Part shown: one piece after another, positions 10,002-17,811 of the stretch | Layout of the letters: every line of letters starts with the position of its first letter | Position numbering within the stretch: the first letter of the stretch is position 1 | From: Schmidtea polychroa | Lineage: Eukaryota | DNA: 64,000 nucleotides | Direction: 5' to 3' | NCBI GenBank assembly: GCA_044892525.1 | Contig: CM097885.1 | Coordinates: forward strand, 20,834,001-20,898,000 | Translations under genes and position numbers: made by a program | Notes under the pieces: generated by a model | Seen by the model: only the letters and a program-made list of their open reading frames with translations | Databases searched by the model: none | What the model was told of the DNA's origin: nothing

Positions 10002-10500
10002 AAAATGGGTTTACACTAAAAAAGCATGGATTTAATCAGACTGATTCGATTGATCCAGGGATTTTCAATACAAAAAGATGGTTTACACTAAAAAAGCATG
10101 GTAATTTAAGGTCTCAGGATATTTTCAATACAAAAAGGTGGTCTACACTAAAAAAGCATGGTAATTTTTTTAATTACAGTAAACAATGGTCTACAATTTT
10201 CAATTAAAGTAAATTAAGGTTCAGATTTTTGAATTAAAGTTAAATATGGTCCAAATTTTAAAATTAAAGTTAATTAAGGTCTAAATTTTTCAATAACAGT
10301 AAATAATGGTCCATATTTTTCTATTAAAGTAAATTAAGGTCCAAATTTTAAAATTAAAGTTAATTAAGGTTCTAAAAAATTAAATTAAAGTTAATTAAAG
10401 GTCAAAATTTTAAAATTATGTAATCAATGATCAATAATTTTAATTTAAAGTTAAATATGTAAATTAAAGTAATAATTTTTAAATAATTAAAGTAATTATA
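10002..10500. repeat. Subterminal tandem repeats (about 60-70 bp x3, then about 30 bp units)
   Basis: GGTTTACACTAAAAAAGCATGG x3, then AATTAAAGTAAATTAAGGT-type units. Inverted copies lie at about 16290-16530 and 17340-17690. Confidence 0.8.
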
Positions 10501-10703
10501 CTAAGATTTAAAAATTATTAACAAAAGTTTGAATAATAGTCGGTGATTGAGAATTGAAATTTTTTAATGAAAATTTTTATGAAATAATTTTTTTTAAGTT
10601 AATTTTTAATATAAATTTTTATAGATTAATTTTTAATGAAATTTTTAATGGAAAATTTAGTGGAATAATAGTAATAATAATAGTAATAATAATAGTAATA
10701 ATA

Positions 10704-10742
<39 letters not shown>

Positions 10743-11105
10743 TCTCAACCAAATTCTATACAACACATAAAAATTGACTAAACACATCAAAATTAACTAA
10801 ACATATAAAAATAACTAGACACATAACTAAACACATAAATAGACACATAAAAAGAACAAAAGTAAAGATATAAAATTTTATTAAATAAAATCAATCTTCA
10901 TCTGATAAAATAACATCATCAATGTCAACTTCTTCATAAACTTCTCCAACATCTTCTTCATCAACTTCTTCATCAATTTCTTCCTCTACTTCTCCAACAT
11001 CTTCTCCAACATTTAATTGACTTTATCTTACATATCCATATGCAAAACTAGTTTTTTCCCCACCAAACCCTTTTGTCATCTGCGTTAGTTAGAACTATTT
11101 TACTA

Positions 11106-12015
11106 CTCCCTCCGTCCGGTAATATGGTATACATTTCAACAAAAATCGTAGATTATCGTGAATATAAAAATAAATAGGCAACTGTCATGACATTGTCATA
11201 GTAAATATTCATGACAATATAACCTAAAATATTTGACTTAAGTAATATCATTCTTAGTTAAAAACTTACCGCTCAAACATCAGTGTTTCTTGAGGTAGAT
11301 AAAATTAGTACCGCTGCAAGACGAATATGGAAAATGTGGAAGGAAATTTGTTAAATTTAGAAAGAAGAGATTCAAAATATAAACAGTTAACTAAAGAACA
11401 ACGTCAAGGTATTTTTGAAAATTTATTACAGCAGATGAAGGAGAATAAGTTAAAACACGGTGCAATCAACGAAGTTGCTACTGCGTTTCAAGTTTCCCGG
11501 CTAACCGTTAGCAGAATTTGGCATGCAGCACAAACTCAATACAGAAAAGGTAAGATATGTGCCGATGTTTCTTCAAAAAAGAAAAAAAGATGCGGAAGAA
11601 AACCTAGAATTAATTAATCAATTAGAAGCGAATACTCTCGATAACGTTTTTACAACATTGCAAGCATGTATGGAGTCAATTATGTTAGCAGATGGAGGAA
11701 ATGGCTATAAAATACCTCATTTAAGTAAAGGAAAACTTCGTCGCGAAGGTCGACTGCTAGAAAAATATGTATGTTCTAAAGAAGCATACAATAAAGCCAA
11801 ATCAAATTTCGAGTGAACTTATTAATATTAATATTTATTTTTTTAAATTTTATTTAATATTTACATTAATATTTATTAAAATGTTTCAAATAAAGGTAAT
11901 ATAATAAACTTGTCATGTATATTTTTTGATTTATTTTATTTTTTCGCAAATGTATACCATATTTCCGGACAACAAAAATCGCTCAAATGTATACCATATT
12001 TCCGGACGGAGGGAG
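11106..12015 (+). mobile_element. Internally deleted DD39D mariner (non-autonomous copy of 18726-20485)
   Basis: TIRs CTCCCTCCGTCCGG(T/A)AATATGGTATACATTT with TA on both sides. Nearly identical to 18726-20485 except for loss of the catalytic region. Confidence 0.95.
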
Positions 12016-15000: not shown

Positions 15001-15214
15001 GATTCCGAATTGAATTTTGACGGAGCCTAATTCGTTAATAATATCTCTTAATTTCATTATTAACGATTCTGGAAATATTATTTCCTTAATATTTAAGTCG
15101 CTAGTATTTAAACTCAATATCTGGTGGGTACCTCTTAAATCGCGTTGAACTGTCAGTACATTTCCACCTATTTGTATAGTATTTGATCCATCCCAAGAAT
15201 CAAGGGAAATGTTG

Positions 15215-15345
15215 TCAAATCCATCATTGGATTCAACTACCAATCCGTCCTGGGATGCGACAAGAGGCAATCCGACCTGGGATTCAACAAAAGGCAATTT
15301 ACCCTGGGATTCAACTACGTCTAATCCATCCTGGGATTCAAAAGA
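15215..15345 (-). repeat. 24-27 bp coding tandem repeat (VESQxGL) in the pPolB N-terminus
   Basis: CCTGGGATTCAAC-type units are repeated about 5 times. Confidence 0.7.
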
Positions 15346-17103
15346 AAAAGTAGCTAATTTAATTTTTTTATTTGTAATATTTATTTCTACGGTTGAGGGT
15401 CTTTTAAAAACAGTGTCTTTTTTTAAAATTAAACCAATCTAAATGATTTTTATGGTTATTATAAAATGTATTATATGTTACGGGGTCACTAGTTTTGCAT
15501 ATGGTCATATAAAATAAGTTTTATTATAATATTTTTTAATGTAATAATTTTCCATTATAGAATGGCAATTATTATTATGTTCTTTCGCTAAACAATAATT
15601 CGGGTAAAGTATACCTATAAAATAAAAATTTTAAAAAAAAATATTATAATTTAAATGAAATATTTTAATAAATGTTTACGCAAAAATTTGGAAAAAATTA
15701 TTATTTATTACAAGAAATATTTACAAATTTTATTTTACAAATTTTATTTACTAAAAAATAAAAATTTACTGAATTAAAAATATTAACATTTACTTAAATA
15801 AAAAATTATATTAAATTTCCTTTAAAGTATAAAAAGTGATCAATACTTACATTGTAAATTTTCATTTCGATTTATTGATATAATTTTTCTCTTTATTCGT
15901 ATTACCTAAATTATTAATTAATTAAATCAATAAATTAAAAATTATGCTTACTTTTTCTTTTCAAATTTCCTTTAATCTTCGATTTCAAATTGTCTTCTTT
16001 AATATTATCTAAATTAATTAATAAATTAATTAATCAATAAATTAAAATTTACCAAATTTCGGACATTCATAACGTTTTCTATTAAAGGATTCATTTTTAA
16101 AAGTTAACTATTTGTTAAATGTGAATAATGATAGATTATTGTTTATAGACTGAAGATAATAAACAGGAACAAATTCTAACCAATCAAATCAAGGAAGGGT
16201 TAGAAAAATAAATATATTACGTTGCGGTATTTTAAAATTTAAATATATTTTAAAAACACATTTTGACGCTAAAGTCAACTTATGTTACAAATTTTAGAAA
16301 ATTTTAGATCCTTAATTTAATTTTAAAATTTAGCCATTAATTTACTTAATTGAAAATTTTAGACCATAATTTACATATTTATCATTAATTTACTTTACTT
16401 TAATTTTAGATCCTTGATTAATTCAATTTAAAAATTTAGACCCTTAATTTACTTTAATTGAAAATTTTAGACCTTAATTTACTTAATTGAAAATTTTAGA
16501 TCATAATTTTCATGTTAAATATTCATTGAAAATTTTTAATTACTCAGGCGCTGTTCAGTAGGCAGTTAGGGGTCACCACAAATGCAAGTCGAGTTTTTCT
16601 TGCTTTTTTGATTACGTAATTGCTGCAACTCGTTTTTTAATTTTTTTGTTACGTAATTGCAGCAGTAAGCTACGCTTATTTTTACTGGAATGTTCAATGC
16701 AAGAAAAACGAGTTGCAACAATTACATATTCAAAAAAGCAAAATAGCTCTAACTAACGCAGATGACAAAAGGGTTTGGTGGGGAAAAAACTAGTTTTGCA
16801 TATGGCCATGTAAGATAAAGTCAATTAAATGTTGGAGAAGATGTTGGAGAAGTAGATGAAGAAATTGATGAAGAAGTTGATGAAGAAGTTGACATTGATG
16901 AAGATTGATTTTATTTAATAAAATTTTATATCTTTACTTTTGTTCTTTTTATGTATTTATTTATGTGTTTAGTTATGTGTCTAGTTATTTTTATGTGTTT
17001 AGTTAATTTTGATGTGTTTAGTTAATTTTTATGTGTTGTATAGAATTTGGTTGAAATATTATTATTACTATTATTATTACTATTATTATTATTATTATTA
17101 TTA

Positions 17104-17155
<52 letters not shown>

Positions 17156-17811
17156 TATTATTACTATTATTATTATTCCACTAAATTTTCCATTAAAAAT
17201 TTCATTAAAAATTAATCTATAAAAATTTCTATTAAAAATTAACTTAAAAAAAATTATTTCATAAAATTTTCATTAAAAAATTTCAATTCTCAATCACCGA
17301 CTATTATTCAAACTTTTGTTAATAAATTTTAAAATCTTAGTATAATTACTTTAATTATTTAAAAATTATTACTTTAATTTACATATTTAACTTTAAATTA
17401 AAATTATTGACCATTGATTACATAATTTTAAAATTTTGACCTTTAATTAACTTTAATTTAATTTTTTAGAACCTTAATTTACTTTAATTGAAAATTTTAG
17501 ACCATTATTTACTGTAATTAAAAGATTTACCATGCTTTTTTAATGTAGACCACCTTTTTGTATTGAAAATATCCTGAGACCTTAAATTACCATGCTTTTT
17601 AGTGTAAACCATCTTTTGTATTGAAAATCCCTGGATCAATCGAGACGCCCTCACTATTAATCCATGCTTTTTTAGTGTAAACCCATTTTTGTATTGAAAA
17701 AAATATGTGTAGTGTACGGCAGCAATTGCGTAATCAAAAATCAGAAAAATATTACGACAGCAGAACCCCCCGCCGGGGGTCATTGCTGCCGTAGGCTCCT
17801 AACTACCTACT

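What the first reader, a model, noticed from the sequence alone, without database searches (positions are those of the whole stretch)
10002..17811. A pPolB-only element with Polinton-like ends but no integrase or capsid genes
Seen: after removing the 910-bp mariner, this roughly 7 kb unit holds only a pPolB gene. It has about 1 kb inverted arms, arrays of about 30 and 60 bp subterminal repeats, and an AGTAGG-type terminus distinct from the neighbouring AGTAGT Polinton. pPolB runs directly into the arm, and the 1.1 kb upstream is non-coding. Known: pPolB plus TIRs is the architecture of linear plasmids/invertrons and of one bidnavirus segment. Inference: either a satellite, linear-plasmid-like replicon that borrows integrase and capsid from Polintons, a genome segment, or a deletion derivative.
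Basis: partly seen in the sequence, partly recalled or inferred. Interest (0 to 1): 0.7.

Follow-up and report, generated by a model that had tools for sequence, protein, structure and literature searches.

The report
Decayed, rearranged Polinton polymerase remnant
This stretch is most likely the dead, patched-together leftover of a virus-like jumping element that kept only its broken DNA-copying gene, but that gene comes from a lineage otherwise seen only in environmental DNA, and a small polymerase-only parent is not ruled out.

Summary
The parts are real, but they do not form one clean element. The pPolB gene (10909-15555, minus strand) is a pseudogene: about seven frameshifts, three stops, a short deletion and a mariner. 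The arms are 2-3% diverged and both hold the gene's last ~55 codons with a shared lesion, so the right arm is a copy of the left end, not an ordinary TIR. The left end lacks its outer 122 bp. A second AGTAGG terminus with a strong hairpin sits inside at 16557, facing right. No TSD is visible. Best reading: a composite of a long polymerase-end remnant and a 1.25-kb mini-element of a Polinton-like family, made by template switching.

The polymerase falls in a long-branch clade known only from metagenome contigs. 14 of 28 clusters reach 10-32 kb, and all 6 relatives with enough flank have neighbouring genes, which favours a larger parent. Recurrent 5.7-7.3 kb contigs keep a polymerase-only replicon open (about 20%). 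Unchecked scan notes report copy-back Mavericks in this genome and a capsid-less pPolB element in another.

The parts
9756..10001 (.). Neighbouring AGTAGT-type end: a 246-bp stretch bounded by a 24-bp perfect inverted repeat. It stands where the left terminus of the pPolB unit should be.
   Evidence: flanks are not a 6-bp duplication
10002..11104 (.). Left arm, missing its outer 122 bp. Holds ~60-bp repeats, a 30-bp array (10167-10457), an AAT tract and the pPolB tail.
10909..15555 (-). pPolB pseudogene (N-terminal zinc finger, putative TP region, vOTU, exonuclease with an EndoVII-like zinc finger, palm, acidic tail). Frame changes near 15510, 15415, 14727, 14080, 14012, 13195 and 13065 (with about 20 codons missing there) and near 11050; in-frame stops at 13234, 12220 and 12037; split by the mariner.
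   Evidence: vOTU fold
11104..12017 (+). 910-bp internally deleted mariner (11106-12015) with TA duplication; 5 differences in 910 bases from the longer copy at 18726-20485.
15488..15517 (.). 30-nt stretch at the 5' end of pPolB that is complementary to the gene's own 3' end (11023-11052; the same sequence is in the right arm at 16789-16818).
   Evidence: 27 of 30 and 26 of 30 matches; scores 45 and 40 against a maximum of 39 in 100 Markov controls; no such end-to-end match among the top three inverted matches in any of 7 related loci
15556..16289 (.). AT-rich non-coding spacer upstream of pPolB.
   Evidence: 17% GC, longest stop-free frame 42 aa; no tblastx hit to fetched loci
16290..16540 (.). 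Inner 30-bp array, inverted relative to the left array; probably the older far-end array of the long piece.
   Evidence: mean best 30-mer identity 0.75-0.79 to the arm arrays against 0.61 for AT-rich control DNA
16557..16741 (+). Second, diverged AGTAGG terminus facing right, followed by a long hairpin (stem 16599-16741) that shares a ~30-nt motif with the hairpin of the right terminus.
   Evidence: 15 of the first 20 nt match the right terminus; the 14-nt pattern is expected 3e-5 times in 7.8 kb; fold z = -6.8
16737..17689 (.). Right arm: inverted copy of 10002-11104, beginning with the last ~55 codons of pPolB on the + strand.
17690..17811 (-). Outer 122 bp with a subterminal hairpin and the AGTAGG terminus, followed by an ATT microsatellite.
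   Evidence: fold z = -4.0

Best explanation
A dead, composite remnant of a larger Polinton-like (Alpha-type pPolB) element. The parent was a linear DNA with AGTAGG ends, subterminal hairpins and repeat arrays, copied by its own TP-vOTU-exonuclease-palm polymerase (domains and ends shown; protein priming inferred from the family). Two pieces of that family lie head to head. The long piece (10002-16540) holds one end, pPolB and the far-end repeat array, and has lost its other genes. The 1.25-kb piece (16557-17811) has both kinds of end and nothing between the hairpin and the last codons of pPolB (layout shown). The short piece most likely arose when synthesis stalled at the hairpin and jumped, over 4-5 nt of microhomology, to the pPolB tail and copied out to the terminus (inferred). 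Integration needed an integrase supplied in trans, or host repair (inferred; no TSD seen). The gene then decayed, a mariner inserted, and a neighbour's AGTAGT end replaced the left terminus (order inferred from 2-3% arm divergence against 0.55% mariner divergence).
For: The gene is broken in about 11 places. Both arms hold the gene's tail and lose the match to intact relatives at the same residue, so the duplication came from an already damaged template. The inner terminus is far beyond chance and its hairpin ends exactly where the right arm begins. For a larger parent: 14 of 28 examined clusters of the clade have a member on a contig over 10 kb (tallied). All 6 clade loci with 0.6 kb or more of flank (4 independent elements) have another ORF within about 0.5 kb of pPolB. 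One of these ORFs best matches, among 7,966 ORFs, the small pX-like gene that lies between integrase and ATPase in L109 and L047 (E 0.0013 and 0.028); L109 also has a DJR-like capsid protein. L030, among the next relatives outside the clade, has a penton-like ORF. pPolB plus TIR without integrase is described as a Polinton remnant in C. elegans (PMC11414722, passages), and butterfly Polinton TIRs can hold coding genes (10.1101/2025.02.07.637071, passages).
Against: No capsid, ATPase or integrase gene was seen on any of the 20 clade loci, though all are under 4.9 kb. The clade was found in none of four pPolB scans of IMG/VR. The long piece has a repeat array on both sides of pPolB with only 0.75 kb of clean AT-rich spacer and no trace of lost genes, which a deletion must explain. 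43 of 133 relative contigs are 5.5-7.6 kb, often at recurring lengths. The pX link is weak (hhalign probability 38%, 25 columns; Atlas score 0.88, a lead only). The long contigs themselves could not be read and may be host DNA. The inner arm edge also lies within 3 bp of the mariner site, which this account does not explain.
Confidence: 0.6

Rival explanations
1. The parent really is a ~6-kb polymerase-only linear replicon with two unlike AGTAGG ends. It copies itself by protein priming and borrows integrase, and perhaps capsid, from Polintons. This locus is a dead, rearranged copy of it.
For: The long piece is 5,625 bp without the mariner; adding the missing ends gives about 6 kb (inference). 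It has repeat arrays on both sides of the gene. Intact relatives recur on contigs of 5,700-5,725 bp (5 of 14 members of one cluster) and 6,035-6,068 bp (8 of 15 of another), and 9 of 28 clusters have their longest contig at 5.5-7.6 kb. No clade member was found in IMG/VR. Capsid-less pPolB elements have arisen from Polintons before (PMC11161782, passages; PMC13215967, results part 1).
Against: 14 of 28 clusters reach over 10 kb, including 12 of 15 listed members of the close relative P0004. All 6 loci with enough flank carry other ORFs, one of them pX-like. None of the 20 clade loci ends in an AGTAG-type terminus. Recurring contig lengths also arise when assemblies break at repeats (own knowledge).
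Confidence: 0.2
2. A different route to the right arm (compatible with either parent): the mariner caused it. A break at the mariner end, or copying that started beside it, moved a copy of the left flank to the hairpin at 16741 inside the chromosome. The DNA right of 17811 would then be a copy of the old left flank.
For: The inner edge of the arm match lies 0-3 bp from the mariner TA site; only 3 of 822 TA sites in the unit lie within 5 bp of an arm edge. The match does not continue beyond the mariner.
Against: The mariner differs from its longer copy by 0.55%, while the arms differ by 2.2-3.1%, so the mariner looks younger than the duplication. No mariner sequence is at the junction. The mariner may instead have been drawn to the foot of an existing stem-loop, or the match may be chance.
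Confidence: 0.25
3. An integrated polymerase segment of a multipartite bidna- or Vesanto-like virus.
For: Vesanto virus has 3.3-5.8 kb segments with inverted terminal repeats, three of which encode PolB homologues (10.1101/2020.10.16.342956, passages). Seven of the 20 clade loci, with diverged pPolBs, come from one assembly. Bidna-like PolBs head the BFVD list.
Against: Identity to those PolBs is only 19-26%, and 14% to Vesanto. The nearest named sequence hits are animal Polinton-type proteins at 33-37%. Relatives reach 10-19 kb. The AGTAGG end resembles Maverick (AGT)2 ends (PMC8097293, passages). No NS1 or VP gene is in the unit.
Confidence: 0.07

Closest known systems
Polinton/Maverick elements and Alpha-PolB adintoviruses (PMC8502044; PMC8097293; PMC11161782)
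   Same: [quoted passage not shown]
   Different: No integrase, capsid, ATPase or protease; gene dead; no TSD seen; AGTAGG instead of (AGT)2 or (AG)3; polymerase on a separate long branch.
pPolB-end Polinton remnants of C. elegans (pPolB1 plus TIR without INT; PMC11414722)
   Same: Polymerase and terminal repeat without integrase, inside a host chromosome.
   Different: Here the end is duplicated in inverse together with the gene's tail, and a second terminus lies inside.
Cytoplasmic linear plasmids / virus-like elements of yeasts (pGKL type) and capsid-less fungal pMVREs (PMC11161782; PMC13215967)
   Same: TP-vOTU-type pPolB between inverted ends, no capsid.
   Different: Those are extrachromosomal and carry more genes (pGKL gene content recalled); this is a decayed chromosomal copy, and no plasmid protein appeared among the named hits.
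Bidnaviruses and Drosophila Vesanto virus PolB segments
   Same: PolB on a 3-6 kb unit with inverted terminal repeats.
   Different: Low identity (14-26%); no NS1 or VP; no evidence of partner segments.

Membership tests
Polinton/Maverick (intact) | Protein-primed PolB of PF03175 type | tested here: met
   PF03175 in two open stretches, E 1.8e-11 and 2.7e-9; exonuclease and palm motifs present; the gene is a pseudogene
Polinton/Maverick (intact) | N-terminal vOTU domain in pPolB | tested here: met
   Model of 14037-14729 (pLDDT 86.7): the top 27 rows are nearly all OTU-family or related papain-like proteases, best Z 6.8, rmsd 3.5, 88 aligned; the Z is middling and the stretch starts near the catalytic cysteine
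Polinton/Maverick (intact) | Terminal-protein domain before vOTU | not tested
   A folded domain precedes vOTU in the model of relative P0004, but it was not compared with known terminal proteins
Polinton/Maverick (intact) | rve integrase | tested here: not met
   No integrase ORF in 10002-17811; the window's integrase belongs to the neighbour (5522-6916)
Polinton/Maverick (intact) | Capsid, penton, ATPase and protease genes | tested here: not met
   None in the unit; none on 20 short clade loci
Polinton/Maverick (intact) | Both termini with an (AGT)2 or (AG)3 type motif | tested here: not met
   AGTAGG variant at 17811; left terminus absent; an extra terminus at 16557
Polinton/Maverick (intact) | 6-bp target-site duplication | tested here: inconclusive
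   Not testable for the whole unit, whose left terminus is missing; absent around 16557-17811
Defective Polinton remnant / non-autonomous derivative | Polinton-type end joined to decayed Polinton-type genes inside host DNA | tested here: met
   host-like repeats and a proteasome-subunit fragment elsewhere in the window
Defective Polinton remnant / non-autonomous derivative | A complete parent with the same ends in the same genome | not testable with these tools
   No genome held; no reads were laid on the stretch
Linear plasmid / invertron | Extrachromosomal linear DNA with protein-capped 5' ends | not testable with these tools
   Needs reads or bench work
Linear plasmid / invertron | Intact polymerase between two complete terminal repeats | tested here: not met
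Bidnavirus / Vesanto-like segment | PolB grouping with bidnavirus PolBs | tested here: inconclusive
   Structural hits at 14-26% identity; no bidnavirus row was knowingly in the trees
Bidnavirus / Vesanto-like segment | Partner segments with NS1 and VP sharing the termini | not testable with these tools
   No access to the source samples' other contigs

The most novel reading that the evidence does not exclude
An undescribed, deep clade of Alpha-type pPolBs includes ~6-kb polymerase-only linear replicons with two unlike hairpin-bearing AGTAGG ends, which live in eukaryote hosts as satellites of Polintons and spawn mini-elements by hairpin-triggered template switching; this locus is a fossil of one such replicon joined to one such mini-element.
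Probability: 0.2. Interest if true: 0.7.

Novelty: new member of a known kind. Interest (0 to 1): 0.35.

Why it matters
As it stands the locus is a fossil, and most Maverick copies are (96% defective in vertebrates, PMC8097293). Two things give it modest value. It ties a pPolB clade that these searches found only in metagenome contigs to a eukaryote chromosome. And its junctions (hairpin foot, microhomology, 5'-3' complementary patch) look like marks of a single-stranded replication intermediate, which is proposed for Polintons (own knowledge). If the ~6-kb polymerase-only form proved real, it would be a nuclear counterpart of the step from Polinton to linear plasmid, so far described for fungal cytoplasmic plasmids (PMC11161782), and would show that a polymerase-bearing element can live on borrowed integrase.

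Tried and rejected
The window's genome is not held, so copy number, parent elements and the missing left terminus could not be sought. No reads or contigs were laid on the stretch. A run search found six runs of one coded organism in two studies holding 24-37% of the words of 12030-16500, plus two rows at 0.05 and 0.03 (8 rows); unlaid, this could mean related copies a few percent diverged or partial assemblies, and it is not used as evidence.

IMG/VR scans for the clade's pPolB gave nothing or only 12 distant loci at 25-33%; a scan for the small pX-like gene gave nothing. The GTDB scan gave 26 loci, none placed inside the clade. A 16-nt terminus pattern gave 14 IMG/VR matches, which were not followed up and were left out of later analyses.

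The 15488-15517 patch first looked like a third pPolB 3' end; tblastn showed that it is the gene's own 5' end on the other strand. The hairpin at 16599-16741 first looked like an unrelated MITE; it follows an AGTAGG terminus and shares a motif with the right end. An assembly artefact is unlikely, since the arms differ by substitutions and several indels. The L026 downstream ORF found only itself, and its likeness to an L109 ORF was not significant (E 0.12). Shared AT-rich flank matches among clade loci are mostly low-complexity and were not used.

Seven literature searches listed no paper describing a polymerase-only Polinton-like family in animals; subscription papers and Repbase are not covered. 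No supplements were read; those of PMC13215967 and of the bioRxiv preprints (closed) could hold members of this clade. The host was not identified.
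Full report
What is in the window. No genome is held, so the work rests on the 64-kb window and on databases. Bases 1-10001 are a Polinton-like element with a DJR capsid gene, an rve integrase with a PLA2 domain and an A32 ATPase. It ends in an AGTAGT motif at 10001, with a second, inverted 24-bp copy at 9756. The rest of the window is AT-rich, repeat-laden eukaryote DNA. Earlier scan notes call this an animal genome; I did not test that.

The arms. 10002-11104 pairs with 17689-16737. 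The arms differ at 28 of 907 aligned bases, or 18 of about 802 without one diverged patch and the AAT tract, and by several indels, among them 150 bp of the 30-bp array. The left arm lacks the outer 122 bp, including the AGTAGG terminus, and abuts the neighbour's AGTAGT end. So only one outer terminus exists and a TSD cannot be tested for the whole unit.

The gene. Intact relatives map pPolB from 15555 down to about 10909. It has about seven frame changes in the body, three in-frame stops, a loss of about 20 codons near 13065, a 910-bp mariner with TA duplication, and one more frame change near 11050. A model of the open stretch 14037-14729 matches OTU proteases in nearly all of the top 27 rows, best Z 6.8. 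This fits the TP-vOTU-exonuclease-palm layout of Polinton pPolBs (PMC11161782, passages) and the Alpha class (PMC8502044, passages, and section 3.5). The last ~55 codons, including an acidic tail, lie inside the left arm and again in the right arm. In both copies the match to relatives stops at the same residue, so the right arm is a duplicate of an already damaged left end.

The 'non-coding upstream' has three parts: 734 bp of 17% GC spacer; a third 30-bp array at 16290-16540, 0.75-0.79 like the arm arrays against 0.61 for control DNA; and a second AGTAGG terminus at 16557 that faces right. The 14-nt terminus pattern is expected 3e-5 times in 7.8 kb. It is followed by a hairpin (z -6.8) whose stem ends at 16741, overlapping the start of the right arm by 4 of 5 matching bases. 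The right terminus has its own hairpin (z -4.0), and the two share a ~30-nt motif. So 16557-17811 reads as a 1,255-bp mini-element with both kinds of end, without a 6-bp TSD, lying head to head with a 5,625-bp long piece. Two smaller oddities remain. The 5' end of pPolB is complementary to its 3' end over 30 nt (scores 45 and 40; maximum 39 in 100 controls; not seen in 7 related loci), and both sites carry or adjoin a frameshift, as local template switching in single-stranded DNA would give (inference). And the inner arm edge lies within 3 bp of the mariner site, true of 3 of 822 TA sites, although the mariner (0.55% from its longer copy) looks younger than the arms.

The polymerase family. 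The exonuclease piece found 163 proteins among 1,113 candidates; the top 43 of the 120 listed are 39-62% identical and all come from unnamed metagenome contigs, and the first named hit (C. briggsae) is at 35%. FastTree trees of the two open stretches, each with about 139 proteins of 1,000 aa or more, put the window in a clade of 31-32 rows with support 0.99-1.0 on a long branch (midpoint-rooted, no known plasmid or bidnavirus rows, shorter proteins left out). A 132-row tree with loci gives the same clade, 47 rows, support 0.999. A model of relative P0004 is 19-26% identical to bidna-like PolBs, 17% to adintovirus entries and 14% to Vesanto PolB in BFVD.

Do relatives carry more than pPolB? Evidence is indirect. 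Of 28 clusters examined, 14 have a member on a contig over 10 kb and 9 top out at 5.5-7.6 kb; of 133 member rows, 27 are over 10 kb and 43 are 5.5-7.6 kb. Some lengths recur (5,700-5,725 in 5 of 14; 6,035-6,068 in 8 of 15). These contigs could not be read. The metagenome scan gave 20 loci at 39-59% identity among the 80 kept, all under 4.9 kb. None has a hit to the neighbour's capsid, integrase, ATPase, protease or penton, and none ends in an AGTAG-type terminus. Six have 0.6 kb or more of flank (four independent elements), and all six have another ORF within about 0.5 kb. The ORF in L022/L023 best matches, among 7,966 ORFs, small genes of L109 and L047 (E 0.0013, 0.028) that lie between integrase and ATPase. 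The L109 gene has a weak Adeno_PX hit (E 0.05), and L109 encodes a DJR-like capsid protein. The link is weak. L030, among the next relatives outside the clade, has a penton-like ORF (E 4e-6 against the neighbour's putative penton). No clade member turned up in IMG/VR or GTDB contigs.

How it most likely arose. Shown: two pieces of one family, a dead gene, a duplicated end, hairpins at both end types, a junction at the hairpin foot. Inferred: a larger Polinton-like parent; loss of the other genes; a template switch at the hairpin that made the mini-element; integration by an integrase in trans or by repair; later decay, mariner insertion and loss of the left terminus. I put this at 0.6, a true ~6-kb polymerase-only parent at 0.2, and a bidna-like segment at 0.07. 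For the origin of the right arm alone, a mariner-driven event gets 0.25.

Against what is known. [quoted passage not shown] PolB segments with inverted ends exist in Vesanto virus (10.1101/2020.10.16.342956, passages), and capsid-less pPolB elements in fungi (PMC13215967, abstract and first part of results). Passages of 10.1101/2024.03.25.586562 and 10.64898/2026.06.19.733378 named no such family, nor did seven search listings. Unchecked scan notes describe copy-back Mavericks and gene-less palindromic satellites in this genome and a capsid-less 5.3-kb pPolB element in another; they are leads, not support.

Verdict. A real but ordinary kind of fossil, from an apparently undescribed polymerase clade, with a minority chance of a new polymerase-only family behind it. 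Interest 0.35.

Noticed in passing
window 9756-10001: A 246-bp stretch bounded by a perfect 24-bp AGTAGT inverted repeat, without a 6-bp TSD. It may be part of the neighbouring Polinton's terminal repeat or a mini-element of that family, mirroring the 16557-17811 layout.
   Followed up: partly
window 1-10001: Polinton with open integrase-PLA2, ATPase, pX-like, putative protease and penton frames; the capsid gene is split over 7412-8236 and 6937-7439. Its own pPolB is not in the window.
   Followed up: partly
window 18726-20485: Longer mariner with CTCCCTCCG-type ends and a 300-aa transposase stretch; the 910-bp copy is its internal deletion derivative, 0.55% diverged. The ends recall plant-type DD39D mariners (recalled, not tested).
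   Followed up: partly
window 15488-15517 and 11023-11052: The 5' and 3' ends of pPolB are complementary over 30 nt, beyond 100 controls and not seen in 7 related loci.
   Followed up: yes
window 23037-24310: Penelope-like retroelement remnant (RT and GIY-YIG pieces).
   Followed up: no
window 28310-28700: Decayed proteasome alpha-subunit fragment (PF00227) next to microsatellites.
   Followed up: no
window 50149-50742: 151-nt inverted repeat, 97% complementary, 292 nt apart; MITE-like.
   Followed up: no
L014:296-417 and L019:1-126: Two diverged clade members share an 87% identical stretch upstream of pPolB that reads as the end of a small ORF with L-x-G-G repeats, possibly adenain cleavage sites (recalled motif).
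   Followed up: no
L022 downstream (about 2360-2645) and L035:1-284: DNA downstream of one clade pPolB matches DNA upstream of another (80% over 141 nt inverted, 92% over 53 nt direct): a shared promoter-like block, or a sign of short tandem units.
   Followed up: no
L013, L014, L016, L018, L019, L020, L035: Seven diverged pPolBs of the clade come from one metagenome assembly, as expected if one host carries many families, or of a multi-segment virus.
   Followed up: no
L109:1-12666: A near-complete Polinton-like element (pPolB, integrase, ATPase, protease, DJR capsid) sits on a contig filed in a bacterial MAG; several other MAG contigs are similar and look like contamination.
   Followed up: partly
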